Shown here one piece after another: positions 24,062-42,380 of a stretch of DNA of 64,000 nt (the first letter of the stretch is position 1; the number at the start of each line of letters is the position of its first letter). A program made the translations under genes and the position numbers. The stretch spans positions 2,208,001 to 2,272,000 of the forward strand of contig OX638340.1 in assembly GCA_951812955.1 (NCBI GenBank), read 5' to 3'. A model generated the notes under the pieces. That model was not told the origin of the DNA and ran no database searches. It worked only from the letters and a program-made list of their open reading frames with translations. The stretch comes from an uncultured Gemmatimonadota bacterium (GTDB lineage Bacteria > JAAXHH01).

Positions 24062-24910
24062 ATGCACCCCACGCCCCTGACCGAATCCCAGCGACGTTCT
24101 TTTGAAGAGGACGGTTTCCTCATCGTCCCGGGCGCACTCGACCCCGCTCAAATCGATGCGCTGACGGAAACAGGCGACCGGCTCCTGGATGGTTTCGAGT
24201 ACCCGGGTTTTTACGCCCATCGCCGTCCCGGTCTCGTGCAGGAGAAGCCCTTTCTGGATCTCGTAACGAACGATCGCACGGTCCCGCTGATCGTGGCCTT
24301 GCTCGGTTTCAACATCCACATCACGAACACGGCCCTCATCCACAAGCACCCAGAGGCGCCAGGGGATACCGATCAAGTCAACTGGCACCGCGACGTGGGC
24401 GTTTCACTGGACGTGGGTCACGTGAAGGTACCGCTGGTCGGCCTGAAGATCGGCTATTGCCTGACGGATTTCCTCGGTCCGGACACGGGCACGACCCTGT
24501 TCGTCCGGGGCAGCAATAACATGAAGTCTGCGCTCGCGATACGGAAGGGGCAGATCCATCCGGACGAATACGTGCAGCCGGTCCTCCGGGCTGGCGACGC
24601 TTTTCTCTTCGAAAACCGGACCTACCACGCGGCCGGACTGAATTTCACGAAACAGATCGCCAAACTGGTCATCTATGGCTATCACTACCGGTGGATCAAG
24701 CCGGACCACTACATGCGGTTCTACAACGATACGCCGCAGCCCGATGCCAGCCTGCTCGAGGGAACCGACGACGTGGGCCGCCAGTTGCTGGGCGCTACGG
24801 TGGACTCCGAGGGCCGCGAAGCGCCCGACGGCATCGACTGGCCCATCCGGGAATGGGCCGATCAGCACGGACTCGACGTAGCGCAGTACACGCACACCGT
24901 AGATGCCTGA
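24062..24910 (+). CDS. phytanoyl-CoA dioxygenase (PhyH) family Fe(II)/2OG oxygenase
   Basis: 282 aa. N-terminal QRRSFEEDGFLIVPGAL; conserved H (VNWHRD) and the distal His region. Confidence 0.7.
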   Translation: MHPTPLTESQRRSFEEDGFLIVPGALDPAQIDALTETGDRLLDGFEYPGFYAHRRPGLVQEKPFLDLVTNDRTVPLIVALLGFNIHITNTALIHKHPEAPGDTDQVNWHRDVGVSLDVGHVKVPLVGLKIGYCLTDFLGPDTGTTLFVRGSNNMKSALAIRKGQIHPDEYVQPVLRAGDAFLFENRTYHAAGLNFTKQIAKLVIYGYHYRWIKPDHYMRFYNDTPQPDASLLEGTDDVGRQLLGATVDSEGREAPDGIDWPIREWADQHGLDVAQYTHTVDA

Positions 24911-27236: not shown

Positions 27237-28376
27237 CTAAGCCGCCATTTCCTTGCCCTGAGCTTCCCTTATGCACTCCGCGAGAATGGGTATGCCATCG
27301 CGGATATCCTCAATCGTGGGGAAACCGTACGCGATGCGCAGGTAGGGAATATCCTCTCCCAGGGCGCTGAATCCCTGCCCCGGCGTGTAGTAGACGTCGC
27401 GGCTTGCCGCCAGTTGGTGGGCCTTGCGCGTGTCCGTCGCCGATGGGATCCGTACCCACACGAACATGCCGCCGGGCGGATCCGTCCACCAGACCTCATC
27501 GCCCAACGCGCCGAAGTGGGCCTCCAGCGATTCGACGACCGCGTCCTTGCGCGCTTTCATGACGCGGTTCACTTCTGCGATGTGGTCCCATAGATGCTCG
27601 CCGAAGTATTCCGCTACGATCATGCTCGCCAGGGCGTTCGTCCCTCCGTCCATCTTGTTGGCCATGATCCGCTGCTGCAACGCCTCCGGGGCCATGAAAT
27701 AACCCTGCCTCACGCCTGGTCCGAGTATCTTGGAGAAAGAACCGACGTAAACGACCCGTTCGTCTTCGTCCAGATGATACAGGTTCGGCGGCACCGGATC
27801 GGACTGGAACACGATGTCCCCGTAGCAGTGGTCGTCCACGACCGGCGTATCAAACTCGCGAGCCAATTCGAGCAGGCGTTCCCGCCGTTCCAGCGGCATG
27901 ATAGAGCCCGTTGGATTGTGATGGGTGGGGATGGTGTAGATGAACTTCGGCGGCGTTCCCGCGTCGACAAGACCCTGCAATACGGTCTCCAGTTCGTCCG
28001 TGACCAGTCCCTGTTCGTCGAGCGGCGCAGGCACGATGCGCACCTGCCTGCTGCGAAACACACTCAACGAGCCGCCGTAAGAAAAGGATTCCGTGACGAT
28101 CGTGTCTCCGGGTGACGCGAAGGCGTCCGTGATCAACTGCAGCGCCTGCATCGAACCAGAGGTTAAAACGATCTCTTCCAGGGGCACCGCTCGTCCAGTG
28201 CCGCGCGCGAATCGCTGCGAAGCGATGGCTCTCAACGGTTCGTATCCCCGGCCGTCCGGGTAGTTTACCAGTTCCGAGCCGCGTGCGGCAATGACCTTTG
28301 CCGCGGCCTCGGCCAGCGCATCTGACGGGAAGGACAGGGGGTCGGGCCGTCCGGCGCCTAGATTGATCTCACGCAT
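27237..28376 (-). CDS. PLP-dependent aminotransferase, class I/II
   Basis: 379 aa. Schiff-base lysine context SFSKILGPGVR and the HNPTG motif. Confidence 0.8.
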   Translation of the reverse strand: MREINLGAGRPDPLSFPSDALAEAAAKVIAARGSELVNYPDGRGYEPLRAIASQRFARGTGRAVPLEEIVLTSGSMQALQLITDAFASPGDTIVTESFSYGGSLSVFRSRQVRIVPAPLDEQGLVTDELETVLQGLVDAGTPPKFIYTIPTHHNPTGSIMPLERRERLLELAREFDTPVVDDHCYGDIVFQSDPVPPNLYHLDEDERVVYVGSFSKILGPGVRQGYFMAPEALQQRIMANKMDGGTNALASMIVAEYFGEHLWDHIAEVNRVMKARKDAVVESLEAHFGALGDEVWWTDPPGGMFVWVRIPSATDTRKAHQLAASRDVYYTPGQGFSALGEDIPYLRIAYGFPTIEDIRDGIPILAECIREAQGKEMAA

Positions 28377-28507: not shown

Positions 28508-29152
28508 TCACCTACGTGATCGCGATGGTACTGAACAATGATCATCCAATATTTTAACAAGAGACATACAAACACTTCTCATCTGACTAATCGCACTACT
28601 TATCTCTGATCGAGTATATCTGCGTCCGATATTCTCCGGTGGTTCTCGACCATGGGCAATAGCATTTCTGTGTGCGACCACTTCGTCTATTCGATTTCTA
28701 TGTTTTCGTCGGCGTACAGGCATCCGCCGAATACCAAAAACCCCAAAAATAAATCGCAGATGCGAGTATCTATAATGTGTTCCGTCGGTAGGTGGTTTGA
28801 TATTACTGGACAGATCAGGCTTTTGATCTGAAAATGCACGTTCAAATACTTTAACTCGATTTAACCATTCCTTACTTCGCGACCCGTCCCGCAATGATTT
28901 CAATTCTGGATCCAAGTAAATAGCCATTAGTGTAGGCAACAGATCTTTCATCATGTGTTTGTGGTTTTTAATCGCTTCTACTGCCCCAATCACTGCGTTA
29001 TTCACAGTGTATTCGTAGACAGCGTAAGTCTGCACAAACAAAAGCCCCTTGGCAACGACTGCTTGGTGTTCTTCCAGCTTCCTTGTCGCCTTCCAAAATT
29101 GCTCAATTGATAAAAACCGAGTTTCAATTTCTGTCTTAAGTGCTGGGAACAT
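28508..29152 (-). CDS. HEPN-domain protein (MAE_28990/MAE_18760-like), predicted RNase partner of DUF262
   Basis: 214 aa. Rx4H HEPN motif in VVAHRNAIAHGREP. Overlaps the upstream DUF262 gene by 17 nt. Lies in the AT-rich islet. Confidence 0.55.
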   Translation of the reverse strand: MFPALKTEIETRFLSIEQFWKATRKLEEHQAVVAKGLLFVQTYAVYEYTVNNAVIGAVEAIKNHKHMMKDLLPTLMAIYLDPELKSLRDGSRSKEWLNRVKVFERAFSDQKPDLSSNIKPPTDGTHYRYSHLRFIFGVFGIRRMPVRRRKHRNRIDEVVAHRNAIAHGREPPENIGRRYTRSEISSAISQMRSVCMSLVKILDDHCSVPSRSRR

Positions 29153-30215
29153 ACACTCTTCCTAAGAATCGATCTCGGCAGAACTCTATACGACCCTTCA
29201 CAGCTCTCAAACTATTTGTCGCGCCTGTGGTGAATCCTCTGAGTTCGTCCGAGTTCATCCAAGTAGAAATGTCTGTTGTGTCCAGTTTAGCATGTTCTTT
29301 TAATGCTAGTGATGCTCCTACGGCTATTGCCTCATAGAGATTCAATGGCGTTAAGCCCTTCCGACCAGGACGCCTTATACCTTCTGGGAAAGTTTGGGCT
29401 AGTTTTTGAAAAACCGTTCGAAACTCTTTTTCTTTGGTAATGTAGTCAAAGTGATTGCTCGCATCCTTCATGTAATCCGTTAAAAACTCCTCAACACTGT
29501 GTTCAAAGTTATTGTATCGATCCAAATACGCAAAATAACGAAGCACACATTCTTCTAAAGTTCCATCATTCCTGTTTCCTTTTGAAAGTTTTACGACCTT
29601 TTGGAAGTCATCAGTTTTTGCCAACTCATCTAGTTTGTCAGCAAACTTTCCTTGGTACACGCAGTCCCGTATTTCTTGGTTCGTTAGCAAAACACCGCCG
29701 GTGTTCAAGCGCTCAAAAAGATCAAACCGTATTACTTTGTCACTCTTATCGTTCAGGGTAACAACTCTTAAAGGTCTAGTCTTCACATGTTGTTGAATTG
29801 TTGTAGGAAAGGTACCATATGTCAAATTGTTGAAATTACTTAGTTTCTTCAGCCCTTTTAATACTAGCTTCTCACCCAAGCCAAATTGATTACGCAGTTC
29901 TTCATCGCCAGCAAACTTGACTATTGCACTCAAACGTTGAACTCCATCAACAGCTTCCCACGTGAAATCGTCATTTGTTGCCATAAAAAGATTGGGAATC
30001 GGTATTCCAAGCATGAGCGATTCTACGAGTCGAGAACAGCGTTCATCATTCCAGCGAAATTGCCGTTGGTATGAAGGTGCAACTGATATCTGTCCTTCCT
30101 TTAGCATGCTCAATAGTTCTTGGAGTTGGATGTCGAAAGTATCGAAATCCACTGTTCGTCGTTGAGTTGCCAGTTGATCAGTAAGGTCTTGCGGTATTTC
30201 GATAGGAATTTGCAC
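29136..30215 (-). CDS. DUF262 (ParB-like nuclease/NTPase domain, GmrSD N-terminal-type) protein
   Basis: 359 aa. DUF262 signatures APSYQRQFRW and AVDGVQRL (DGxQR). There is no C-terminal DUF1524/HNH half as in full GmrSD. Confidence 0.65.
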   Translation of the reverse strand: MQIPIEIPQDLTDQLATQRRTVDFDTFDIQLQELLSMLKEGQISVAPSYQRQFRWNDERCSRLVESLMLGIPIPNLFMATNDDFTWEAVDGVQRLSAIVKFAGDEELRNQFGLGEKLVLKGLKKLSNFNNLTYGTFPTTIQQHVKTRPLRVVTLNDKSDKVIRFDLFERLNTGGVLLTNQEIRDCVYQGKFADKLDELAKTDDFQKVVKLSKGNRNDGTLEECVLRYFAYLDRYNNFEHSVEEFLTDYMKDASNHFDYITKEKEFRTVFQKLAQTFPEGIRRPGRKGLTPLNLYEAIAVGASLALKEHAKLDTTDISTWMNSDELRGFTTGATNSLRAVKGRIEFCRDRFLGRVYVPST

Positions 30216-30706
30216 TTCACCCTCCTACGATCCGGCTTTCAATCAAGTTCCGATTAGCGAGACAATCTTGTTACGAACCAAGATGATAAAGGCTGCCAGT
30301 GCTAGTTAAACTCTAACATGTTCTTGGTAGGTAAAATATGCGCTAATAAGCCTCTCTGATTTGCCAATCTCATAAACTCATATACTTAAGCCGTAGAATT
30401 GCTAATGTGAATTATGTGTGAAACTGTGCAAGATTGAGGTACTCGATTACCGTGTAAGTTTTGGACGACACGGTGCCAGTTGGTTCATTCTCCTACAGTT
30501 ACTACAAATGCCGTGTAACTCGACCAGACAGCCAATGTAGAGCGGCCTTCCCATGCCTGTCAACCGCTTATGCACGGACGCGGGGCGTCTTCAACCGTAT
30601 ACGAGGCGCATTCAGCCGGATAAGTGGGCGCCGTTGACAGGATGCATGACCCTTTCTACATTGGTCCTACCGGTACCAGCAACTGAATCTCTCCATCATA
30701 TCGCCC

Positions 30707-33082
30707 ATGATCTCACACCGATTCATCCCCCTGCTCGCCACAATTGTTACGTGCGCGTCGTTCCAGACCGTTGCGCCCGTCACCCATGCGCAGGACCAGC
30801 CACCGGGTCAGCTGCAATCCAAGCGCCCGATTCGCGTCGAAGTCCCGCTCTTCGAGGGCGGCCAGGGGCTGGAGTTCTTCCTCGAGTGCGCCCGGACCTA
30901 TGAACAGGAGCATGAGGGCGTAGTGATCGACCTCTACGGCGATCCCCGCATACACGACAAGGTGCGGGTGCGCATCCTTGAACGCTCCTTCCCCGAGGTC
31001 ACAAACGCCCGCCTGAACTACTGGGCGCTCATCCGCAACGGCGACCTGCTGCCCTTGGACGAGTTTCTCGACCAGCCCAACTGGGAAGGGGACCGTACCT
31101 GGCGCGAATCGTTCCTGCCCGGTACGCTGACCCAGTACACGCATGAGGGTAAGACCTATGGCGTTCCCCTGATGGCGTCGGCCTACGCGGTGTGGTACAA
31201 CAAGAGCCTCTTCGAAGAACACGGCTGGCAACCGGCGACCACCTGGGAAGAGTTCTTTGCGCTTTGCGAAGAGATCAAGGCCGCCGGCATGTGGCCGCTC
31301 GCCTTCCAGGGCCGTTACCCGGGCTACGTGCAGGCCGTGATCGACCACGCATACTACCACCTGGCAGGACCGGAAAGGTACTTCGACCAGAAGAACCTGG
31401 TACGCGGCAGTTTTGACAATCCCGAATTCGTCGAGTCCCTGTCCCTTGCGCAGCAAATCGCACTCAACTTTTTCCAGCCGGGCGCCATGGGCATGAGCCA
31501 CACCGAATCGCAGCTCGAGTTCTTCCTGGGCCACACGGCCATGATCTTCTGCGGTTCGTGGCTCAAGAGCGAGATGCTGGGCAAGATACCGGACGGTTTC
31601 CGCCTGGGCTCCTTCAACCTGCCGGTAGCGCCTACCGGCAAGGCGGATCCATCGGCCGTTTACGGCGGGTCCGGGTACTATTTCGTCATGAAGGACAGCG
31701 ACAACCCGCTGGCCGGGGTCGAGTTCCTGCGCTTCATGACCTCCCGGCGCATGGCCGGCCGCTTCGCCCGGATGCGCGACATCCCCGTGTCCGTGGCCGG
31801 CGTATCCGAAGAGAACCTGTCGGAAGACATGGCCGACCTGGCGGCCATGCTGAAAGACGCGGCCGTCACTTACGGTACGCCGCCCGGGGAAGGCTATCCG
31901 GCTATGACGCAGTACTGGACCGACGCGCGCTTCCGCGTCATAACCGGACAAACCACGCCAGCCGAAGCCGCGGCGGAACTGGAAACCGCGGCGGCCGTGG
32001 TCCTGCGCCAGACCGTATCCCCGGACGAGATCAACATCCGGCACGTATGGAAGCCCGTCCTGCTGATCGGTCTCATGGCTCTGGCGGTGGTCTACTGGTC
32101 GGCCACGACCTACAGGCACTACCGGGAACGCAGGCGCGCCGGAATCAGCACCACGGAGGGCCGTCCCTTTCTTCGCCGGACCGACCGGATCATCCTCATC
32201 GCGCCCGCCCTCGTGCTTTACACGGTGTTCGTGATCATTCCGAGCGCGAAATCGTTCCTCTGGAGCCTGAACGAGTGGGATGGGCTGACTGAAATGCGTT
32301 ACACGGGCCTGCTCAACTTCGGCCGCCTGCTCTTCGAAAGCGACGGATTCTGGATCGCGCTGAACAACAACCTGTTCATCATGTTCGTAATCCCGCTGTT
32401 CGTCATCCCGATTTCTCTCTTCCTGGCCGTATGCATCAGCCGAGAGATCTGGGGGTCGCGATTCTTTCGCATCGCCTTCTTCTTCCCGAACATTCTCGGT
32501 GCCGTGGCCGCCACGCTCCTCTGGATGCACCTCTACAATCCCCAGGGCGGTCCGATAAACACGGCGCTGGTGGGCATCGGGGTGATCCTGTCCGCGGCCG
32601 GTCTGGAAACCGCGGGAAGCTGGCTGCAGGCCATGGAAGGATTCGCCTGGCTGTCGCAGTCCAACCTGTACTGGGCGCTGATCCCCATGTCCATCTGGGG
32701 CGCGTGCGGGTTCAACATGATCCTCTTCCTGGCCGCCATGGAGAGCATTCCCCAGAGTCTCTACGAAGCGGCGGATATCGACGGCGCATCGTCGTGGCGG
32801 CAGTTCTGGACCATCACCCTGCCCCTGATCTGGGAGGTGCTATCCATCTCCATCGTTTTCATGGTCATCGGCGGAATGAAGGTCTTCGAGTCCATATGGC
32901 TTTTGACCAACCAGTCGCCGACCACGCAGGTGCACGTCATCGGCACGCTCATGGTGCAGGACATGTTTACCGAGTTCAAGATCGGCGAAGCCACGGCCAT
33001 CGCCGTACTGCTGTTCATCATGGTCTTTTTCGGAACGGCCGCCACGTTGAGACTCATGCGGAGGGAAACGGTGGAATTCTGA
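30707..33082 (+). CDS. fusion of ABC (CUT1-type) extracellular solute-binding protein and ABC permease
   Basis: 791 aa. Signal peptide; ~430-aa sugar-SBP-like domain; an extra TM helix VLLIGLMALAVVYWSATTY; then a MalF/UgpA-type permease domain with the EAA loop YEAADIDGASSWRQFWTITLP. Confidence 0.7.
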   Translation: MISHRFIPLLATIVTCASFQTVAPVTHAQDQPPGQLQSKRPIRVEVPLFEGGQGLEFFLECARTYEQEHEGVVIDLYGDPRIHDKVRVRILERSFPEVTNARLNYWALIRNGDLLPLDEFLDQPNWEGDRTWRESFLPGTLTQYTHEGKTYGVPLMASAYAVWYNKSLFEEHGWQPATTWEEFFALCEEIKAAGMWPLAFQGRYPGYVQAVIDHAYYHLAGPERYFDQKNLVRGSFDNPEFVESLSLAQQIALNFFQPGAMGMSHTESQLEFFLGHTAMIFCGSWLKSEMLGKIPDGFRLGSFNLPVAPTGKADPSAVYGGSGYYFVMKDSDNPLAGVEFLRFMTSRRMAGRFARMRDIPVSVAGVSEENLSEDMADLAAMLKDAAVTYGTPPGEGYPAMTQYWTDARFRVITGQTTPAEAAAELETAAAVVLRQTVSPDEINIRHVWKPVLLIGLMALAVVYWSATTYRHYRERRRAGISTTEGRPFLRRTDRIILIAPALVLYTVFVIIPSAKSFLWSLNEWDGLTEMRYTGLLNFGRLLFESDGFWIALNNNLFIMFVIPLFVIPISLFLAVCISREIWGSRFFRIAFFFPNILGAVAATLLWMHLYNPQGGPINTALVGIGVILSAAGLETAGSWLQAMEGFAWLSQSNLYWALIPMSIWGACGFNMILFLAAMESIPQSLYEAADIDGASSWRQFWTITLPLIWEVLSISIVFMVIGGMKVFESIWLLTNQSPTTQVHVIGTLMVQDMFTEFKIGEATAIAVLLFIMVFFGTAATLRLMRRETVEF

Positions 33083-33125: not shown

Positions 33126-34046
33126 ATGACGCGGACGGACGAAATGAAACAAGCTGGAGATAACGGCCGGACGGGCGAAACGAGTCCGAAGGGCGAGATG
33201 CGCCGGACCGCGGCCTGGAATCTGATTGTATACCCGATCCTGCTCGGTTACCTGGTCATCGTGGTCTATCCGATGGCCTGGCTGCTTTACACGTCGCTCA
33301 AGACGGACCGGGAGATCTTCCTTGCGCCCTTCACGCTGCCGGACTGGGCGGACCTGCAATGGATAAACTTTTCGCGGGCATGGACAGTGGGGCAATTCGG
33401 GGATTACTTCCTGAACAGCGCGGTGCTGACGGTCCTGACCGTGATCCTGTCCCTGCTCTTCGCGGCCATGGCGGCCTATGCCCTCTCGCGGTTCCGCTTC
33501 TTCGGCGCGCGACCGTTGTTCTTCTTCTTCCTGGCCGGCCTGATGGTGCCGCTGCAACTGGCCATCGTGCCGCTATTCTTCCAGATGAAGGACCTGATGC
33601 TGCTCAACTCCCGGCTGGGACTGCTGATCGTGTACATCGCCTTTGGCATGCCCTTCGCCATCTTCATCCTGGCGGGGTTCTTCAAATCGCTGCCGTCGGG
33701 CCTTCACGAATCTGCGCTCATGGATGGGGCCGGCGAACTGCGGGCCTTCTGGCACATTATGCTGCCGCTGGCCAAACCCGCCCTGGTCACCGTGGGCATC
33801 TTCGCCTTCCTCGGCACCTGGAACGAGTTCTTCATGGCCTTCATGTTCCTGTCGGGCGAAAATGCCGAAAACCTGCGCACCCTTCCGCTGGGCCTAGCCA
33901 ACATTACCATCGTGAGCCAGTACCGCAGTGACTGGGGCATGGCCTTCGCCGGCCTGGTGCTCATGATGCTGCCCACCATGGTGGTCTATGCCCTGCTACA
34001 GCGGCAGGTGACCCGGGGGATCACGGTGGGGGCGCTAAAGGGGTAA
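33126..34046 (+). CDS. ABC transporter permease (MalG/UgpE-type)
   Basis: 306 aa, six TM segments. EAA-like loop ESALMDGAGELRAFWHIMLPLAKPAL. Confidence 0.8.
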   Translation: MTRTDEMKQAGDNGRTGETSPKGEMRRTAAWNLIVYPILLGYLVIVVYPMAWLLYTSLKTDREIFLAPFTLPDWADLQWINFSRAWTVGQFGDYFLNSAVLTVLTVILSLLFAAMAAYALSRFRFFGARPLFFFFLAGLMVPLQLAIVPLFFQMKDLMLLNSRLGLLIVYIAFGMPFAIFILAGFFKSLPSGLHESALMDGAGELRAFWHIMLPLAKPALVTVGIFAFLGTWNEFFMAFMFLSGENAENLRTLPLGLANITIVSQYRSDWGMAFAGLVLMMLPTMVVYALLQRQVTRGITVGALKG

Positions 34047-34118: not shown

Positions 34119-35717
34119 ATGGATCCATCAACGCGTCTGAGGACCAGGGATTGGCAGATCATGCCACACGATTCACAGCCAACAGACACGATCTGGTACT
34201 GCATTCGGCGAAATGGCATCGCGAAAGATGAAGGCTGGATCGGCGATGTCACGCTGGATGACTTGCCGAATCAGGTGGGCGTTGAACCGGGTGATACGTT
34301 CGAAGTTTGTATCGCTTCAGACTTTCAAACTGTACCGCCTGACCAGATATCCAGCTTCTTCTACAACCGGGACCGCGGGATTGTCGGCTTGGAGATGGCT
34401 TACGGTGATGAGACCTTGCGAATCGCGCCTACTCGAATGATCGCAGCGAATCTCGGGTTTGCCCGGGCCATGGAGAGATTCCGTCAACAGTTAAACATAA
34501 GCGCTGACGAATTCGCCACCAACGGCAGGCTGCGTGTTTTTTCCGCCAGGCAGGTCCTGGTACCGGGCGGAAGCATACCTGACCGAATGGAACTACATCG
34601 TGGATCAACACTCGTGACCGAGGCTCCGTCGGATGGCAGGGACCGAGCTGAGGTGCTGGCCTGTGGAATTAGTCGGTGGATGCTTCGAAATATGTCCGAG
34701 GATGGCGCGTTGCCCTACAAATACTGGCCTAGCCGGGGTAAAGAATCTCCGGCCGATAACGCCATTCGCCGGTTTCTTGCATCCCTGGCCCTTGAACGTC
34801 ACGGTAGATATTTCGATGACAAAGAAATTCGTGAGGCGGCCCGGCGCAACCTGGGCTTCAATCTGAAGCGGAATTTCAGGGTCATCGGCGGTGGAATAGG
34901 CGCCATAGTGGAACCAACAGGAGCGAAGCTTGGTGCGGCGGCGCTGGCCGCTTTGTGTATACTGGAGAGCCCGGCATTCAGTGATTTCAAGACCGAGTAC
35001 GACATGCTGACCGCTGGTGTGAACTCACTTGCGGATAAGGAAATGGGATTTCGTACATTCTTCTTTCCACCCGAACGCGACGGAGAAAACTGGAATTTCT
35101 ATTCGGGGGAAGCACTACTGTTCTGGGCCGAGGCCATGCGCCATGGCGCGCCGGGTGCCCCTACGCTGGAACGCTGCGCCGAGACTTTTGATAAGTGCCG
35201 GGAACGGCATTTTCGGGCACGGAACCCCGCTTTCGTTCCGTGGCATATACAGGCCTGCACATCCCTGTTCAAACAAACAAGGCGGCGTGAGTTCGTCGAT
35301 TTTGTGTTTGAGATCAGCGACTGGCTACTACCAATGCAGCAGTGGGACGGAATGTTGCCGGACCTTCGCGGTCGGTTCTACAATCCAAAACGACCGGATT
35401 TTGGACCGCCACACGCGGCTTCCACCGGAGCCTACCTCGAAGGTCTTGCGGACGCCTCGATGTTGGCGCAAATGGTAGGAGACTGTCCCCGTGCCAAAGC
35501 ATACCAACGAGTCGTAAACCGTGGGCTGCGTTCTCTACGTCAACTGCAGTTCCGCGATGCCTGCGACACTTTCTATATTTCAAAGAAACACCGTGTCATG
35601 GGCGCGATCCGTACGGAAGCCTACGACAATTCAGTTCGAGTCGACTCGGCAGCGCACGCCCTGATCGCGGCAGTAAAATGGCTGAAATCAGGACGTACTC
35701 ATTCGGTCGGCGCGTAG
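34119..35717 (+). CDS. hypothetical protein, possibly (alpha/alpha)6-barrel glycoside-hydrolase/epimerase-like; last gene of the ABC uptake operon
   Basis: 532 aa. Weak resemblance of the C-terminal ~370 aa to six-hairpin enzymes (FYSGEALLFWAEAM, ASTGAYLEGLADA). Assignment is uncertain. Confidence 0.35.
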   Translation: MDPSTRLRTRDWQIMPHDSQPTDTIWYCIRRNGIAKDEGWIGDVTLDDLPNQVGVEPGDTFEVCIASDFQTVPPDQISSFFYNRDRGIVGLEMAYGDETLRIAPTRMIAANLGFARAMERFRQQLNISADEFATNGRLRVFSARQVLVPGGSIPDRMELHRGSTLVTEAPSDGRDRAEVLACGISRWMLRNMSEDGALPYKYWPSRGKESPADNAIRRFLASLALERHGRYFDDKEIREAARRNLGFNLKRNFRVIGGGIGAIVEPTGAKLGAAALAALCILESPAFSDFKTEYDMLTAGVNSLADKEMGFRTFFFPPERDGENWNFYSGEALLFWAEAMRHGAPGAPTLERCAETFDKCRERHFRARNPAFVPWHIQACTSLFKQTRRREFVDFVFEISDWLLPMQQWDGMLPDLRGRFYNPKRPDFGPPHAASTGAYLEGLADASMLAQMVGDCPRAKAYQRVVNRGLRSLRQLQFRDACDTFYISKKHRVMGAIRTEAYDNSVRVDSAAHALIAAVKWLKSGRTHSVGA

Positions 35718-36334
35718 ATGTAGTGCCCGCGTCCTTTCTCCGGCAGCACGTCGAAAATCAAGTGCACCCGTGGTTCGTTTGTCGGGTTTCTCGCTTCGTG
35801 CAGCGCCTTGTTGTCGAACACCCACAGCTCGCCTTCCCGCATCACTATGGTTTCACCTTCTGCGGTCATTGGACTCCCCTCCGGGCTCCTCAGCACAAGG
35901 TGGTATCGATCACGTATTCGGTAGTAAGCGCCGGCGTCGGTATGAGGTCGAACCCACCCCTGAGGTTGCAAGGATACCAGTGTAGCGCGTCCAAGTACAC
36001 CCCGATGAAGCGTGGCGATCTCTTTACAGAACGCCAGCGTTCGGGGGAATTTTCTAGCAGTAGCAGTAGTGCGACTGTCATGGACGTCGTTGGCGTTTTT
36101 CGCTCCTGGAGGCAGTGGTTTTTTAGCGGTACGCAGAAAGATATTTTGGGTGTCGCGTTGACAACGAACCTTGCGTTGCCGACTGGTATCGGCGAGCCAA
36201 AGATCTGGTACTGTGTCCAATTCCAGCATTAGCGGTTCAATATCGATGCCCGTCGCGATCCGGGTGAAACGCTTACCTGCCGGTGACACATCATTTGATT
36301 CTTTACCGGGAATCACATCGGTCTTGTGTATCAC
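35699..36334 (-). CDS. aspartyl/asparaginyl beta-hydroxylase family (AspH/LpxO/CinX-type) Fe(II)/2OG oxygenase, soluble
   Basis: 211 aa. Family core GWVRPHTDAGAYYRIRDRYHLVL...GETIVMREGELWVFDNKALHEARN...RVHLIFDV, matching HxxPHxD...RLRxHLxL...FDDSFEHEAxN of AspH/LpxO. No membrane anchor. Confidence 0.7.
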   Translation of the reverse strand: MIHKTDVIPGKESNDVSPAGKRFTRIATGIDIEPLMLELDTVPDLWLADTSRQRKVRCQRDTQNIFLRTAKKPLPPGAKNANDVHDSRTTATARKFPRTLAFCKEIATLHRGVLGRATLVSLQPQGWVRPHTDAGAYYRIRDRYHLVLRSPEGSPMTAEGETIVMREGELWVFDNKALHEARNPTNEPRVHLIFDVLPEKGRGHYIYAPTE

Positions 36335-36469: not shown

Positions 36470-37483
36470 TCAGTCGTCATCGTCGTCATCTTTATCATCG
36501 TCGTCATCGTCATCGTCGTCATCGTCGTCATCATCATCGCCGTCGCCATCCCCGTCACCATCCCCGTCGCCATCGCCATCGCCATCGCCGTCACCATCGC
36601 CGTCGCCATCCCCGTCTCCATCACCATCACCGTCGCCATCTCCATCACCATCGCCGTCACCGTCGCCATCCCCATCGCCGTCCCCATCTCCATCGCCGTC
36701 GCCGTTACCTCCAGAGTTCCCACTGGGCGGTGGACTTAACTCTTCATCGCCGTCGCCATCCCCATCGCCGTCTCCATCACCACTGGGCGGTGGACTTAAC
36801 ACTTCGTCACCGTCGCCATCCCCGTCGCCATCCCCGTCTCCATCACCGTCGCCATCCCCGTCTCCATCACCGTCGCCATCGCCATCCCCATCGCCATCGC
36901 CATCACCGTCGCCATCGCCATCCCCATCGCCATCGCCGTCACCATCCCCATCACCATCACCGTCGCCATCACCGTCGCCATCCCCGTCCCCATCTCCGTC
37001 GCCATCCCCGGCCCCGTCCCCATCGCCATCGCCGTCACCATCGCCGTCGCCATCCCCGTCTCCATCACCGTCCCCATCACCGTCGCCATCCCCGTCCCCA
37101 TCACCATCACCGTCACCATCGCCGTCACCGTCACCATCGCCGTCCCCATCGCCACCATTTGAACTTGTGGTATTTGTTACCACACTTGCGTTGTCCTCGT
37201 TATTGCTACCTGCATCCCCGTTCCCATCCCCATTTCCGTTCCTATCTCCATTTCCGTCACCATCTCCATCTCCATCGCCATCTCCGTCCCCGTCGCCGTC
37301 CCCATCGCCGCTGCCACCCGGACTCTGAGCACTCCCCACCTGATTCGCACTCGTGGCGAATCCAGACCCTGATCCCATGGGGTTCAGATCGTTGTCCCCT
37401 CTGCAACCCAGGATCATGAGCAACGAAGCGACAGTCAGTTGCATTCTTCGCAACCATTGCATAATGGTTCGGCACAAGGCCAT
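36470..37483 (-). CDS. predicted lipoprotein composed almost entirely of (Gly-Asp)n dipeptide repeats, ending in poly-Asp
   Basis: 337 aa. N-terminus MALCRTIMQWLRRMQLTVASLLMILGC (signal plus lipobox-like ILGC). Then GDGDGD... for most of its length, with two EVLSPPPSG / EELSPPPSG spacers and a ~20-residue Asp tail. Wobble asymmetry supports this strand: the Asp codons are always GAY while the Gly codons use all four third bases. Confidence 0.6.
   Translation of the reverse strand: MALCRTIMQWLRRMQLTVASLLMILGCRGDNDLNPMGSGSGFATSANQVGSAQSPGGSGDGDGDGDGDGDGDGDGDGNGDRNGNGDGNGDAGSNNEDNASVVTNTTSSNGGDGDGDGDGDGDGDGDGDGDGDGDGDGDGDGDGDGDGDGDGDGDGDGAGDGDGDGDGDGDGDGDGDGDGDGDGDGDGDGDGDGDGDGDGDGDGDGDGDGDGDGDGDGDGDGDGDGDEVLSPPPSGDGDGDGDGDGDEELSPPPSGNSGGNGDGDGDGDGDGDGDGDGDGDGDGDGDGDGDGDGDGDGDGDGDGDGDGDGDGDGDGDDDDDDDDDDDDDDDKDDDDDD
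36480..37320. repeat. ~840-bp hexanucleotide-periodic microsatellite-like repeat (GGN GAY)n with all six frames open
   Basis: Plus strand reads (TCN CCR)n = SPSPSP. Minus strand reads GDGDGD. The ORF track shows overlapping ORFs in every frame across this interval. A 27-bp element CCACTGGGCGGTGGACTTAAC(T/A)CTTC occurs twice inside. Confidence 0.85.
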
Positions 37484-37817: not shown

Positions 37818-38177
37818 CTAAGGCTTGTCGATCCAGACCGGATCCGGCGTGATGCTCGTCTCTGGCGGCGGCCCGGTATCGGTCCATTCTTCCTCGTTCT
37901 CGAGGAGGAATCCGGGTTCGACCGACATGTCGTGATCGCAGATGATCTGGCAGGACAACCGTACCTCGCCGACCAGCCCTTTCTCGGAAAGTACCGCGTG
38001 CTCGGCCTCGGTCATCGTGTCCGGCTCGCCCTCACTGATGGTCACCCGGCAGGTTGTGCACTTGGCGTTCCCACCGCACCGGTGGCCGATGTTCACCCCG
38101 GTGCCCTCGATAGCCAGTACCAGACGCTGCCCGGAATCGACTTCGTTCTCCACTCCGTTGACGGTAAGTTTCGGCAT
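37818..38177 (-). CDS. 2Fe-2S ferredoxin (plant/adrenodoxin-like fold)
   Basis: 119 aa. Cys ligands in GHRCGGNAKCTTCRV and a distal LSCQIIC. Confidence 0.75.
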   Translation of the reverse strand: MPKLTVNGVENEVDSGQRLVLAIEGTGVNIGHRCGGNAKCTTCRVTISEGEPDTMTEAEHAVLSEKGLVGEVRLSCQIICDHDMSVEPGFLLENEEEWTDTGPPPETSITPDPVWIDKP

Positions 38178-38274
38178 GATTCCCTGCTCCTTTCGCGTGT
38201 GTGCTAAACCAGTCTCAAGTGGGTTGTGACTCCATCTCGATCGAATTCAGTACAAGTATCTCCGTTTGCTACGA

Positions 38275-39066
38275 TTAAATAACGTGACCCAGCCGGTCCC
38301 GAGTATGTTCCAGGTCCACCCAGCGATGCGGTCCGTCGGTTACAGCGTAGCACACCTCGTAGACCGGATTCTCCGTGGCCTGCAGGGCCAGTTCGATGAT
38401 CCGCGTGATGTCCGCCTGGCTGCACCAGACCGATCGCAGGAAGGGTTCTGTTGCCTCGTTCTCCTTGTTGACCCATCCGATGCGAAGGCAGACGACGGAA
38501 AAATCGTGGGCATCATGGTAGGTGCGGCAGATCCCCTCGCCCCAGATCTTGCTGGCGGAATAGGGTTCCGTGGGCCGCGGCGGATCGGTGACCTTGACGA
38601 TAGGCATGGGATCGGGCAGCCCCTCCAGACGGCCCTTCAGTAGCGACACGTACGGTTCGTCAAATTGACCGTATCCCCAACTCGCCATGACGGAACTCGC
38701 GTAGATCATTCGCCTGATGCCCTGTTCCCGGCAGACCTCCAGCACGTTGTAGGTACCCCGGATGTTGGCGTCCAGAATGGTCTCGAAGGACGCGCCCGGA
38801 TCGGGGACGGCGCCGAGATGGACCACGGCGTCCATGCCCTCGAGAGCCCTGGACACGGCATCGCGATCGGTCAGATCGGCCAGTGAGAATCGATCTTCCG
38901 GGATGCGCAGGAGATCCTCGTCGTCGATGCGGTCCGACGACACGGTCCGGCGGCCGCTGCCGTAGGCTTCGTACTCATCCTTTCCGCTCAGATACCTGTA
39001 GGTCAGGTTGCCGATCAGTCCGTACGCTCCTGTTACGTGGACCTTCAAGGGTGTTCCTTCGCTCAT
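38275..39066 (-). CDS. NAD-dependent epimerase/dehydratase (SDR family)
   Basis: 263 aa. Rossmann N-terminus VHVTGAYGLIGN and catalytic YSASK. Confidence 0.75.
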   Translation of the reverse strand: MSEGTPLKVHVTGAYGLIGNLTYRYLSGKDEYEAYGSGRRTVSSDRIDDEDLLRIPEDRFSLADLTDRDAVSRALEGMDAVVHLGAVPDPGASFETILDANIRGTYNVLEVCREQGIRRMIYASSVMASWGYGQFDEPYVSLLKGRLEGLPDPMPIVKVTDPPRPTEPYSASKIWGEGICRTYHDAHDFSVVCLRIGWVNKENEATEPFLRSVWCSQADITRIIELALQATENPVYEVCYAVTDGPHRWVDLEHTRDRLGHVI

Positions 39067-39194
39067 CGATTCCTCCAGTTTAACTTCGGCAGATTGGTCG
39101 TACTACTTCTCCAACATACGATTACGCAAAAGTCGAATCATGCCTGCTTAAGATGTCTCGCTCTTCAGTCAGTGAATTTCGGTAATGGCCCTGC

Positions 39195-40826
39195 TCAGGC
39201 CTCGTCCATGAAAGGATAGCGCCAGTCCGTCGGCGGGACCATAGTTTCCTTGATCGTCCGGGCGCTCATCCACCGCAGCAGGTTCATCGGACTGCCCGCC
39301 TTGTCGTTCGTTCCGGACGCCCGGGCGCCACCGAAGGGCTGCTGTCCGACGACGGCCCCGGTGGGCTTGTCGTTGACGTAGAAATTACCGGCCGAGTTGC
39401 GGAGCGCATCCGATATGCGGACGATGGCTTCGCGGTCCTGCGCGAAGACGGAGCCGGTCAGGGCGTAGGGTGACGTGCCGTCGCAAAGCGTAAGCGTATC
39501 TTCCAACTGGTCGTCTTCGTAAACGTAGATCGTGAGCACGGGACCGAAGATTTCTTCTTCCATGGTTTTGAAACGCGGGTTCGTCGTCACGATTGTCGTC
39601 GGTTCGACGAACCAGCCTCGCTCGCGGTCGCAAACGCCGCCCGTGATGATCTCGGCGTCATCCGCCGAACGGGCGTATTCGATGTGACCGGCGATGTTTT
39701 CGAAGGAGGCCTCGTCGATCACGGCCGCCATGAAGTTGGTGAAGTCTTCGGGATCTCCCATCTTGATCTGCGAAGCTTCCGCCGTGAACCGATCCCTGAA
39801 TGCCGGCCACAGGGAACGGGGAATGTACATCCGGGAGGCCGCGGAACACTTCTGCCCCTGGTATTCGAAGGCGCCGCGTACCGCCGCCGCGACGAGGGCT
39901 TCCACGTCCGCTGAGGCGTGGACGAAGATGAAGTCCTTCCCTCCCGTCTCGCCCACGATGCGAGGGTAGTGCCTCATGCGCTCAAGGTTGCCCGCCACCG
40001 TGCGGTACATCCGCTGAAAGGTCTCTGTCGAACCGGTGAAATGGATCCCTGCCAGATCCGGGCTGTTCAGCACCGGATCGCCCACTTCGGCCCCGGATCC
40101 CGGGATGAAGTTAATCACGCCGGGGGGCAAACCGGCTTCTTGCAGCAGCCGCATGACGTGCCACGCCGAATAAACGGCCGAGGATGCCGGCTTCCAGAGG
40201 ACCGAGCAGCCGGTCAGCGCCGGCGCCGTGGGCAGGTTGCCGCCGATGGCCGTGAAATTGAACGGGGTTACGGCAAAGACGAACCCCTCGAGGGCCCGGT
40301 ACTCCAGTCGGTTCCACACCCCGACAGAGGATGCCGGCTGGTCGCTCATGAGCTGCGCGAGGTAGCTGACGTTGAATCGCCAGAAATCGATCAGTTCGCA
40401 GGCCGAATCGATCTCGGCCTGGTAGATCGTCTTGGACTGGCCCAGCATGGTGGCGGCGTTGACCGTCTGGCGCCAGGGACCGGCCAGCAAGTCCGCCGCT
40501 TTCGCTATAACCGACGCCCGGTGCTCCCAGGGCATATCCGCCCACGCGGCGCGGGCTTCCAGGGCCGCATCGATCGCCATACGGACCTCGACCGCTCCCG
40601 CTTTGTGATAGACGCCGAGATCGACTGTGTGATCGTGAGGCGCCCGTAGCGGTGCCGTGTTACCCGTCTTCACTTCGCGCCCGCCGATGATCAGTGGGAC
40701 CTCGACAGGCGAGGATTTCAACTCACCGAGCTTCGCCTTGACGGCGGCTCGTTCGGCCGATCCGGGCGCGTAGTCCAGTACCGGCTCGTTGTAGGGCTGA
40801 GGCGGGTTGAAGCGTGCGTTGGCCAT
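39195..40826 (-). CDS. pruA: L-glutamate gamma-semialdehyde (1-pyrroline-5-carboxylate) dehydrogenase
   Basis: Aldehyde dehydrogenase family with the PruA/RocA-type N-terminus MANARFNPPQPYNEPVLDYAPGS. Catalytic Cys in GQKCSAASR and the ETGGKD Glu motif. I prefer the start at 40826 over the ORF-track start at 40958. Confidence 0.85.
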   Translation of the reverse strand: MANARFNPPQPYNEPVLDYAPGSAERAAVKAKLGELKSSPVEVPLIIGGREVKTGNTAPLRAPHDHTVDLGVYHKAGAVEVRMAIDAALEARAAWADMPWEHRASVIAKAADLLAGPWRQTVNAATMLGQSKTIYQAEIDSACELIDFWRFNVSYLAQLMSDQPASSVGVWNRLEYRALEGFVFAVTPFNFTAIGGNLPTAPALTGCSVLWKPASSAVYSAWHVMRLLQEAGLPPGVINFIPGSGAEVGDPVLNSPDLAGIHFTGSTETFQRMYRTVAGNLERMRHYPRIVGETGGKDFIFVHASADVEALVAAAVRGAFEYQGQKCSAASRMYIPRSLWPAFRDRFTAEASQIKMGDPEDFTNFMAAVIDEASFENIAGHIEYARSADDAEIITGGVCDRERGWFVEPTTIVTTNPRFKTMEEEIFGPVLTIYVYEDDQLEDTLTLCDGTSPYALTGSVFAQDREAIVRISDALRNSAGNFYVNDKPTGAVVGQQPFGGARASGTNDKAGSPMNLLRWMSARTIKETMVPPTDWRYPFMDEA

Positions 40827-41095
40827 GATCCATATGTACCCGCCGCGGGGCCGATGTGTCAACTGTTTTGTAGGCCTTCCATGCGGCTGGAGGATCGGCG
40901 AATCAACGGCCGTTGGACGAGCGGACAGACGGCGGACAGACACTGCCGGACGGGCCATTTTAGCCTTGCCAGATCCTGCGGGGAAATGAGATATTGAGGT
41001 TATAGGCCAAAGCCAGACACGCGAATCATAAGAGCAGGATCAACCAGGTTCGCGGCAGCCCAGGAATTGCAGCCGCCCGGACCGGAGGTACGGTC

Positions 41096-42184: not shown

Positions 42185-42380
42185 CGGGGACTGTTGAATC
42201 GAAATGGCTGATTCGATGTGGACGACGACTGACTAAATCGGGGCAGAAGCGGACCCTCTTCGAGCATTCGGAAGGTCGACGACCGAAGACGAAGCGATAA
42301 TACGTCTGTCGGCCACCCAGCGGCCCGCGAATGACCACCCGTGGTAGACGACGACAGGCGGGATCCAGGAAAGGCTAAGC

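What the first reader, a model, noticed from the sequence alone, without database searches (positions are those of the whole stretch)
30707..33082. Solute-binding protein fused in-frame to its ABC permease
One 791-aa ORF contains a signal peptide, a complete CUT1-type SBP domain, a single extra TM helix (VLLIGLMALAVVYWSATTY) that would return the chain to the cytoplasm, and then a full MalF/UgpA-type permease with the EAA loop. That topology is consistent with a genuine fusion rather than a missed stop. It is followed by a second permease and a putative glycosidase/epimerase-like gene. No ATPase is in the window, so a shared MsiK-type ATPase is expected. N-terminal SBP-TMD fusions are uncommon in carbohydrate uptake systems.
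Basis: partly seen in the sequence, partly recalled or inferred. Interest (0 to 1): 0.5.

Follow-up and report, generated by a model that had tools for sequence, protein, structure and literature searches.

The report
Sugar-binding protein fused to ABC permease
One gene really does encode a periplasmic sugar-type binding protein joined through a short conserved linker and one extra membrane helix to its own ABC-transporter permease; the fusion is real and conserved in many uncultured bacteria, but the same design has already been characterised in the Bdellovibrio maltose transporter, so this is an uncharacterised new member of a known kind.

Summary
Window 30707-33082 (+) is one 791-aa ORF. 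It has a Sec-type signal peptide, an NgcE-like SBP_bac_1 domain, a 10-residue linker, one extra TM helix, a basic cytoplasmic loop, and a six-helix UgpA/MalF-type permease with an EAA loop. A MalG/UgpE-type permease follows at 33126-34046. The fusion is not a missed stop: 86 of 86 related loci keep both halves in one uninterrupted ORF, and all 120 listed homolog clusters (53-91% identity) are fused. MAG labels span Latescibacterota, Gemmatimonadota, Zixibacteriota, Armatimonadota, Victivallales, Phycisphaerae/Tepidisphaerales and one Actinomycetes bin. The linker is exactly 10 aa in 59 of 60 sequences (xPDxVTVRHV-WKP). The AF2 model is confident (pLDDT 88.7, pTM 0.85). No ATPase lies in the window, and few lie near homologs; one locus has a UgpC-type ATPase directly upstream. 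The conserved unit is two genes. The 532-aa downstream gene occurs only in the two closest genomes, and the upstream HEPN/DUF262 pair in none, so both look like insertions. A characterised precedent exists: Bdellovibrio MalE-MalF (Licht 2019). Our SBP is no closer to that MalE than to any other CUT1 SBP, so the fusion is probably independent. The substrate is unknown. Verdict: real, ordinary in mechanism, and a new member of a known kind.

The parts
30634..30662 (+). Possible sigma-70-like promoter (TTGACA-17-TACATT), about 45 nt upstream of the start codon
   Evidence: 10 of 12 matches. The number of such sites in the region (2) is not above the shuffle expectation (1.2 +/- 1.3), so this is weak evidence only.
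30707..33082 (+). Fused SBD-TM0-TMD gene (791 aa plus stop): the receptor and first permease subunit of a CUT1-type ABC importer
   Evidence: AF2 model pLDDT 88.7, pTM 0.85.
30707..30790 (+). Predicted Sec signal peptide (residues 1-28, MISHRFIPLLATIVTCASFQTVAPVTHA|QD), with the cleavage site inferred after T-H-A
   Evidence: Hydropathy peak at residues 7-25. AF2 helix 6-22 followed by a low-confidence segment at 24-37. Family members have variable N-termini that end in AxA-like motifs shortly before the conserved first strand. Cleavage is inferred, not shown.
30818..32017 (+). Substrate-binding domain (residues about 38-437), SBP_bac_1 / CUT1 oligosaccharide-binding type, closest model NgcE
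32018..32047 (+). Fixed-length 10-residue connector (SPDEINIRHV; family motif xPDx[VI]T[VI][RN]H[VI])
   Evidence: the length is 10 in 59 of 60 sequences. P439 is invariant and H446 is 90% conserved. AF2 block pLDDT is about 90-92.
32048..32113 (+). Extra transmembrane helix TM0 (residues 448-469, WKPVLLIGLMALAVVYWSATTY). It returns the chain from the periplasm to the cytoplasm.
   Evidence: Hydropathy. AF2 helix 448-477 with pLDDT about 90. Hydrophobic in all 60 aligned members, with W448 at 80% and P450 at 98%.
32114..32188 (+). Basic cytoplasmic loop (residues 470-494; 9 K/R, 3 D/E)
   Evidence: Net charge is +2 to +11 in all 60 family members, which fits the positive-inside rule.
32189..33079 (+). 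UgpA/MalF/SugA-type permease core (residues 495-791): six TM helices plus a periplasmic insert at about 610-656
32765..32824 (+). EAA coupling loop of the fused permease (EAADIDGASSWRQFWTITLP, residues 687-706)
   Evidence: Regex match. E687, A689, G693, T704 and P706 are invariant in the family.
33126..34046 (+). Second permease subunit (306 aa), MalG/UgpE/GlcU type. It starts 43 nt after the stop of the fused gene, with GAGGA upstream of the ATG.
   Evidence: Pfam BPD_transp_1 at 66 bits. NCBIfam GlcU, UgpE and MalG. Sequence. A homolog lies directly downstream of the fused gene in 74 of 86 loci.
33708..33767 (+). EAA-type coupling loop of the second permease (ESALMDGAGELRAFWHIMLP, residues 195-214)

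Best explanation
The two genes 30707-33082 and 33126-34046 encode the membrane part and the receptor of a type I ABC importer of the CUT1 family. In this system the substrate-binding protein is covalently attached to the first permease.

Proposed mechanism:
1. The precursor is targeted by an N-terminal Sec signal peptide, probably cleaved after THA28.
2. The roughly 400-residue binding domain is exported to the periplasm.
3. A conserved 10-residue connector leads into an extra helix, TM0, which acts as a stop-transfer segment and brings the chain back to the cytoplasm.
4. The chain then enters the N-in, six-helix UgpA/MalF-type core in the normal orientation, so its EAA loop faces the cytoplasm.
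5. This subunit pairs with the MalG/UgpE-type subunit, giving one tethered binding domain per translocator.
6. A dimer of a MalK/UgpC/MsiK-type ATPase encoded elsewhere in the genome powers transport.
7. The tethered domain captures a carbohydrate-like ligand, most likely a di- or oligosaccharide or an amino sugar (identity unknown). It docks in cis and triggers ATP-driven alternating access.

Shown here: the ORF, the domains, the motifs, conservation of the fusion and of the junction, and the partner permease.
Inferred: signal-peptide cleavage, docking in cis, the ATPase partner and the substrate class.
For: Architecture and topology:
- The architecture is shown.
- The AF2 model is confident (pLDDT 88.7, pTM 0.85). 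It has helix 448-477 as TM0 and the canonical permease helices.

Conservation of the fusion:
- All 120 listed homolog clusters (53-91% identity, 720-883 aa) carry both Pfam domains.
- 86 of 86 loci have the SBP and TMD in one uninterrupted ORF, and 74 of 86 have the second permease directly downstream.
- 130 tblastn-confirmed hits were found in a collection that holds one genome per species, under at least seven taxon labels, including two paralogs in some genomes.

Conservation of the junction:
- The connector is 10 aa in 59 of 60 sequences, with invariant P439.
- TM0 is hydrophobic in all members, and the following loop carries a net charge of +2 to +11.

Evolution:
- Pairwise identities of the SBP and TMD halves co-vary (Spearman 0.72 over 1770 pairs), so the halves have been co-inherited.
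- The nearest truly unfused SBPs are at most 40% identical. They have lipoprotein-type N-termini and no C-terminal helix.
- No other related SBP lies within 6 kb in any of the 86 loci.

ATPase:
- There is none in the window, and one lies within 6 kb in only 8 of 86 loci.
- In L058 a UgpC-type ATPase (491 bits against a cut-off of 432) sits directly upstream.

Precedent that such fusions work:
- Bdellovibrio MalE fused to MalF gives a 1:1 receptor-to-transporter ratio and an active ATPase (PMC6906923, section 3.1, citing Licht et al. 2019).
Against: - There are no expression, proteomic or transport data.
- All relatives come from MAGs and metagenomes. No isolate genome appeared among those listed.
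- The raw reads of this window could not be inspected.
- The substrate is not defined. The NgcE model scores 215 bits against a 399.65 cut-off, structural neighbours are only about 20% identical and bind different sugars, and gene neighbourhoods differ between lineages.
- The ATPase partner is not identified for this genome.
- A moderately hydrophobic stretch at residues 615-637 would break the topology if it spanned the membrane. AF2 instead places two short helices there (616-630 and 634-641).
Confidence: 0.85

Rival explanations
1. Artefact: two adjacent genes, an SBP and a permease, were merged by a sequencing or assembly error or by a missed stop codon in this window.
For: Single-base indels do occur in such assemblies. 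One relative (L087) has the gene broken by a frameshift in the cytoplasmic loop. Raw reads could not be examined.
Against: - 86 of 86 independent loci from many assemblies and technologies have one ORF.
- All 120 listed homolog clusters are fused.
- The junction carries a conserved motif of fixed length plus a dedicated TM helix that an unfused SBP would not need.
- Unfused relatives lack that helix.
- In the window, the other two frames across the junction are either full of stops or have no similarity.
Confidence: 0.02
2. The fusion is real, but the tethered domain is not the only or main delivering receptor. In this reading it acts as an accessory, priming or regulatory lid, while free SBPs encoded elsewhere also feed the translocator, or it serves as a sensor.
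For: In the Bdellovibrio MalE-MalF system, added soluble MalE further stimulated the ATPase despite the 1:1 fusion (PMC6906923, section 3.1). Some genomes carry two paralogous fused systems (L027 and L031 on OZ220690.1).
Against: - No second related SBP gene lies within 6 kb in any of 86 loci.
- The SBD is strongly conserved (mean 60% identity to the window protein, with many invariant Trp, Arg and Glu residues), as expected for a ligand-binding receptor.
- The fixed short connector suggests a constrained working geometry.
Confidence: 0.08
3. The architecture is the same but the anchoring differs. The N-terminal hydrophobic segment is not cleaved, so it acts as a signal anchor and the binding domain is held at both ends.
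For: Cleavage is only inferred from a T-H-A motif. AF2 models residues 6-22 as a helix. No signal-peptide predictor was available.
Against: - The N-terminal region is the least conserved part (19% identity) and varies in length, as cleaved signal peptides do.
- Most relatives end this segment with AxA-like motifs followed by polar residues.
- The h-region is short, about 13-19 residues.
Confidence: 0.1
4. The system is an importer of the same build but for a non-carbohydrate solute, since SBP_bac_1 proteins also bind glycerol-3-phosphate and other polar metabolites. The CUT1 label would then describe ancestry only.
For: - The score is below the cut-off for every equivalog model.
- In the window's own clade the conserved neighbours are an aminotransferase, a ferredoxin, an epimerase/dehydratase, an aldehyde dehydrogenase and PhyH/2OG oxygenases rather than glycoside hydrolases.
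Against: - All the best sequence and structure neighbours bind di- or oligosaccharides.
- One distant locus is flanked by GH123, beta-helix and CBM9 proteins.
- The family has many invariant tryptophans. That these are typical of sugar-stacking sites is my own knowledge, not a test.
Confidence: 0.2

Closest known systems
Bdellovibrio bacteriovorus maltose/maltodextrin transporter, with MalE fused to MalF (Licht et al. 2019, Res Microbiol 170:1-12; MalE domain structure PDB 6ffl)
   Same: It is a CUT1 type I importer with a single SBP domain fused N-terminally to the MalF-type subunit. The TMDs are heterodimeric, so the receptor-to-translocator ratio is 1:1, and the ATPase is separate. Activity has been shown experimentally (PMC6906923, PMC7756565).
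   Different: - The subfamily differs. Here the SBD scores best against NgcE (215 bits) and poorly against MalE (28 bits), and the TMD is UgpA/SugA-like (88 bits) rather than MalF-like (30 bits).
- The linker and TM design of the Bdellovibrio protein could not be compared, because the paper and the sequence are not held.
GlnPQ (PAAT family) and OpuA/OpuF (OTCN family) importers with SBDs fused to the TMD
   Same: The receptor domain is covalently tethered to the translocator in a type I importer. The tether raises the local receptor concentration and fixes the stoichiometry (PMC8025302, PMC7673798).
   Different: - Those TMDs form homodimers, giving two or four SBDs per complex. Here the heterodimer carries one.
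- Their SBDs are small cluster-F domains. Here the domain is a roughly 400-aa SBP_bac_1 carbohydrate type.
- In OpuA the SBD is C-terminal and has its own anchoring helix.
- An N-terminal fusion to an N-in, six-helix CUT1 core needs an added TM0. That PAAT cores, being N-out, need none is my own knowledge and was not tested here.
LpqY-SugABC (mycobacterial trehalose importer) and UgpAEC
   Different: In those systems the SBP (LpqY, UgpB) is a separate protein, a lipoprotein or periplasmic. Here it is fused through the connector and TM0.
NgcEFG (Streptomyces GlcNAc/chitobiose importer using the shared ATPase MsiK)
   Same: NgcE is the best-scoring curated SBP model (TIGR03851), aligned over residues 36-429. 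The operon has no ATPase of its own, consistent with a shared MsiK-type ATPase. The link to MsiK is my own knowledge.
   Different: The score of 215 bits is far below the equivalog cut-off of 399.65, so this is not an NgcE orthologue. NgcE is a separate lipoprotein, not fused.

Membership tests
CUT1-type (TC 3.A.1.1) type I ABC importer | Extracytoplasmic receptor of the SBP_bac_1 (carbohydrate cluster) fold | tested here: met
CUT1-type (TC 3.A.1.1) type I ABC importer | Two different permease subunits (MalF/UgpA-like and MalG/UgpE-like), each with an EAA coupling loop | tested here: met
   NCBIfam UgpA for residues 491-785, and UgpE, MalG and GlcU for the second gene. Both EAA motifs were found.
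CUT1-type (TC 3.A.1.1) type I ABC importer | MalK/UgpC/MsiK-type ATPase with a C-terminal regulatory domain as the energiser | tested here: inconclusive
   None is in the 64-kb window. In the related locus L058 a UgpC-type ATPase (491 bits against a cut-off of 432) lies directly upstream of the fused gene. The partner in this genome is not identifiable from the window.
CUT1-type (TC 3.A.1.1) type I ABC importer | Substrate is a sugar, oligosaccharide or polyol | not testable with these tools
   There are only similarity-based hints.
ABC importers with a receptor domain fused to the TMD (Bdellovibrio MalE-MalF, GlnPQ, OpuA) | SBD and TMD in one polypeptide, conserved in orthologues rather than a one-off | tested here: met
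   86 of 86 loci have one ORF, and 120 of 120 listed clusters are fused.
ABC importers with a receptor domain fused to the TMD (Bdellovibrio MalE-MalF, GlnPQ, OpuA) | Topology that puts the SBD outside and the EAA loop inside | tested here: met
   This is by prediction only. A signal peptide, TM0, a positive loop and six core helices give seven TMs after cleavage.
ABC importers with a receptor domain fused to the TMD (Bdellovibrio MalE-MalF, GlnPQ, OpuA) | Homodimeric TMD giving two or four SBDs per complex (the GlnPQ/OpuA subtype) | tested here: not met
   A distinct second permease gene without an SBD follows in 74 of 86 loci. The expected complex therefore has one SBD, as in Bdellovibrio MalE-MalF.
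NgcE equivalog (TIGR03851, GlcNAc/chitobiose SBP) | Score at or above the curated equivalog cut-off (399.65 bits) | tested here: not met
   215.4 bits. The distant fused members P0130 and P0136 score 174 and 155 bits.
Orthologue of the Bdellovibrio MalE-MalF fusion | SBD and TMD closest to MalE and MalF respectively | tested here: not met

The most novel reading that the evidence does not exclude
This may be a distinct, cross-phylum CUT1 subfamily whose receptor is held by a sequence-conserved connector of invariant length (10 residues, xPDxVTVRHV-WKP) and a dedicated TM0. That would imply an obligately cis-acting, near-permanently docked 'hinged lid' receptor rather than a loosely tethered one. 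It would have arisen independently of the Bdellovibrio MalE-MalF fusion. Its unusually high conservation (TMD 53-100% pairwise identity across phylum labels) might reflect horizontal spread of a two-gene module for one specific, still unknown, widely available glycan or metabolite. It would also be a convenient natural single-chain receptor-translocator for structural work on type I importers.
Probability: 0.3. Interest if true: 0.5.

Novelty: new member of a known kind. Interest (0 to 1): 0.3.

Why it matters
The finding shows that SBP-permease fusion in carbohydrate-type ABC importers is not a curiosity of Bdellovibrio.

- It is a stable, widespread solution in uncultured Latescibacterota/Gemmatimonadota-labelled MAGs, Armatimonadota, Phycisphaerae and others. 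A second, unrelated fused pair lies on contig L003.
- Public annotation calls these proteins simply 'extracellular solute-binding protein'. Transporter counts and SBP-to-permease ratios in such genomes are therefore mis-stated.
- A 2026 review of bacterial glycoside transporters does not use the words 'fused' or 'fusion' at all.
- The fixed connector gives a natural 1:1 receptor-translocator. It could be used to test whether receptor dissociation is needed in the type I transport cycle.

Beyond that, the mechanism is conventional.

Tried and rejected
1. The afdb50 fold library was not available. Same-architecture UniProt entries, including the full-length Bdellovibrio protein, could not be retrieved.
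2. Licht et al. 2019, van der Heide and Poolman 2002, and the OpuF paper are not held. The precedent is cited through PMC6906923, PMC7756565 and PMC9045158.
3. Candidate split homologs:
   - P0121 (487 aa, SBP plus TM0) looked like a natural split. It is a frameshifted fused gene: residues 33-474 and 487-782 lie in adjacent frames of L087.
   - P0124 (466 aa) ends 45 nt from a contig end and cannot be resolved.
4. The idea that the 532-aa downstream gene indicates the substrate was rejected. The gene is present only in L007 and L008. In about 16 other genomes of the same clade the ferredoxin gene follows the second permease directly.
5. The HEPN/DUF262 pair as part of the locus was rejected. 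It is absent from all 86 loci and has 39-44% GC against about 60% in the flanks.
6. Reading the hydrophobic stretch 615-637 as an eighth TM was rejected. It would invert the EAA loop, and AF2 models it as two short periplasmic helices.
7. Promoter and terminator scans gave nothing above chance.
8. Model coordinates are not exposed to scripts, so the SBD-TMD docking geometry was not measured.
Full report
**Observation**

The ORF is exactly as described: window 30707..33082 (+), 791 aa, ATG start, no internal stop.

- Pfam finds SBP_bac_1 at residues 64-347 (E 5e-28) and BPD_transp_1 at residues 567-774. Both are above their curated cut-offs.
- NCBIfam aligns an NgcE-type binding protein over residues 36-429 and a UgpA-type permease over residues 491-785.
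- The 25 residues after that helix contain 9 K/R, and the permease core shows the usual hydrophobic segments.
- The EAA motif EAADIDGASSWRQFWTITLP is at residues 687-706.
- The next gene (33126..34046, 306 aa) is a MalG/UgpE/GlcU-type permease with its own EAA-type loop. It starts 43 nt after the stop, behind a GAGGA Shine-Dalgarno-like sequence.
- No ORF in the 64-kb window combines Walker A with an LSGGQ-type signature.

**Is the fusion real?**

Yes.

- A search of 5.8 billion proteins returned 226 hits at E<=1e-5. All 120 listed hits (53-91% identity, 720-883 aa) carry both SBP and permease Pfam domains.
- A scan of one genome per species found 130 tblastn-confirmed hits. The 80 loci kept are MAGs labelled Latescibacterota, Gemmatimonadota, Zixibacteriota, Armatimonadota, Victivallales, Phycisphaerae/Tepidisphaerales and one Actinomycetes bin. 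The closest matches are 98% identical (JAPOOT010000279, OY762445.1).
- In all 86 loci fetched, the best SBP and TMD matches lie in the same uninterrupted ORF. In 74 loci the second permease follows directly.
- The exact window protein is already in NCBI/ENA on a 3.81-Mb contig. A cluster-mate is annotated 'extracellular solute-binding protein [Gemmatimonadetes bacterium]'.

**The junction**

In a 60-sequence alignment (A1) the connector between the last SBP helix and the extra TM helix is exactly 10 residues in 59 sequences.

- The motif is xPDx[VI]T[VI][RN]H[VI]-WKP, with P439 invariant, H446 at 90% and P450 at 98%.
- TM0 is hydrophobic in every member.
- The following loop always has a net positive charge, from +2 to +11.
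- The N-terminal region is the least conserved part (19% identity). It ends in AxA-like motifs, as cleaved signal peptides do.
- Pairwise identities of the two halves co-vary (Spearman 0.72 over 1770 pairs). The pairs are not independent, so this is supportive only. It indicates co-inheritance rather than repeated shuffling.

**Structure**

AlphaFold2 on A1 gives pLDDT 88.7 and pTM 0.85.

- A two-lobed SBP fold ends in helix 418-437.
- The connector follows, then a long helix at 448-477 (TM0) and a low-confidence cytoplasmic loop.
- The six core helices are 491-520, 546-578, 584-609, 654-679, 696-723 and 759-783.
- Two short helices (616-630 and 634-641) sit in the periplasmic loop between TM3 and TM4. 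A coupling helix lies at 683-691.
- No solved chain covers both halves (TMq <= 0.43).

**Relatives that are not fused**

An exhaustive search with the SBP domain alone found fused-length representatives from 52% down to 35% identity. From about 40% downward these are interleaved with ordinary 440-465-aa SBPs.

- The ordinary SBPs have lipoprotein-type N-termini and no C-terminal helix.
- The short close hit P0121 is a frameshifted fused gene. The short hit P0124 abuts a contig end.

**Context**

The conserved unit is two genes.

- In the window's clade the synteny is aminotransferase(-) | fused gene | permease 2 | ferredoxin(-) | epimerase(-).
- The 532-aa ORF and the Asp/Arg-hydroxylase-like gene downstream occur only in the two closest genomes. 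The upstream HEPN + DUF262 pair occurs in none and has 39-44% GC against about 60%.
- Elsewhere the neighbours are unrelated: thioredoxin/LytB, PMT/TPR, and GH123/beta-helix/CBM9.
- An ABC ATPase lies within 6 kb in only 8 of 86 loci. In L058 it is a UgpC-type ATPase (491 bits) directly upstream.
- No second related SBP lies within 6 kb anywhere.
- The 532-aa protein has no Pfam or NCBIfam hit. It belongs to a large, conserved family of hypothetical proteins. It models as a beta domain plus an (alpha/alpha)-barrel, with weak matches to GH76, GH88, AGE-type epimerases and AprG.

**Mechanism**

The best-supported reading is a CUT1 type I importer whose receptor is tethered in cis.

1. The signal peptide exports the SBD.
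2. TM0 acts as a stop-transfer helix and restores the N-in orientation that the six-helix core needs.
3. The heterodimer with permease 2 carries one SBD.
4. A MalK/UgpC/MsiK-type ATPase encoded elsewhere energises transport.

The steps shown here are the ORF, domains, motifs, conservation and partner permease. The inferred steps are signal-peptide cleavage, docking in cis, the identity of the ATPase and the substrate.

**Comparison with known systems**

Tethered receptors are established for GlnPQ and OpuA (PMC8025302, PMC7673798). Within CUT1 they are established for the Bdellovibrio bacteriovorus transporter, in which MalE is fused to MalF.

- That system sets a 1:1 ratio and remains active (PMC6906923, section 3.1, citing Licht et al. 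2019; PMC7756565).
- The present family is not its orthologue. The MalE and MalF models score 28 and 30 bits, against NgcE at 215 bits and UgpA at 88 bits.
- It is not an NgcE equivalog either (215 bits against a cut-off of 399.65).
- A second, unrelated fused pair on contig L003 has 26% identity in the TMD and none detectable in the SBP. Such fusions have therefore arisen or diverged more than once in these lineages.

**Novelty and score**

The architecture is known and has been tested experimentally elsewhere. This family is uncharacterised, widespread and mis-named in databases, and it has an unusually constrained connector. I rate it a new member of a known kind, with interest 0.3.

The most novel reading not excluded is an obligately cis-acting 'hinged-lid' subfamily that spread across phyla for one specific unknown substrate (probability about 0.3).

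Noticed in passing
window 28508-30215 (-): A two-gene module: a HEPN protein (MAE_28990/RiboL-PSP type, 214 aa) and a DUF262/GmrSD_N protein (359 aa). The DUF262 protein matches PADLOC NsnA at 211 bits and PD-T4-2_A at 160 bits. The module has 39-44% GC against about 60% in the flanks. It sits between the aminotransferase and the transporter and is absent from all 86 related loci, including the 98%-identical genomes. It looks like a recently inserted anti-phage defence cassette.
   Followed up: partly
window 34119-35717 (+): A 532-aa protein with no Pfam or NCBIfam hit. It has 854 homologs, and the 120 listed are at least 62% identical, about 510-550 aa long and all annotated 'hypothetical'. 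The named ones come from MAGs labelled Gemmatimonadetes, Acidobacteria and Gammaproteobacteria. There are very many invariant residues. The AF2 model (pLDDT 72.8) shows an N-terminal beta domain plus an (alpha/alpha)-barrel with weak matches to GH76, GH88, AGE-type epimerases and AprG. This is a conserved family of unknown function, possibly spread horizontally.
   Followed up: partly
window 35699-36334 (-): An Asp/Arg beta-hydroxylase-like cupin (PF05118, 80 bits). Its 3' end overlaps the 3' end of the 532-aa gene by 19 nt in a convergent arrangement. It co-occurs with that gene in L007 and L008 only.
   Followed up: no
window 36470-37483 (-): A 337-aa ORF made almost entirely of Gly-Asp dipeptide repeats. 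The DNA repeat has periods of 12 and 60 nt, with about 54 copies of the 12-nt unit. The N-terminus looks lipoprotein-like (…LLMILGC). The opposite strand reads as (Ser-Pro)n. Only the N-terminal part is conserved in L008.
   Followed up: partly
L003 7983-12873 (-): A second, unrelated fused SBP-TM-permease gene (821 aa, 26% identity in the TMD only) lies on the same contig as a family member. It is paired with a 628-aa MalG-like permease that carries an N-terminal extension of about 420 aa. A bAvd/23S_rRNA_IVP-like gene lies between them.
   Followed up: partly
L087 4001-6354: A family member is broken by a frameshift in the cytoplasmic loop and is called as a 487-aa SBP plus TM0 and a 253-aa permease. 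This is either a long-read indel error or a pseudogene. A DDE transposase lies nearby.
   Followed up: yes
L027 and L031 (OZ220690.1); L034 and L041 (VXML01); L038 and L049 (OZ244790.1): Some Latescibacterota-labelled genomes carry two paralogous copies of the fused system at distant chromosomal positions.
   Followed up: no
window 24062-24910, 27237-28376, 37818-43136: The surroundings are rich in PhyH-type dioxygenases (two copies). They also hold an aminotransferase, a 2Fe-2S ferredoxin, an NAD-dependent epimerase/dehydratase and an aldehyde dehydrogenase, all syntenic in the clade. This may be a small-molecule catabolic neighbourhood, but no link to the transporter has been shown.
   Followed up: no
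window 30713-32530 (-): A 605-aa antisense ORF covers most of the fused gene. I read it as a shadow ORF of the kind common in GC-rich DNA. The coding strand is set by the domain hits and homologs on the + strand.
   Followed up: no
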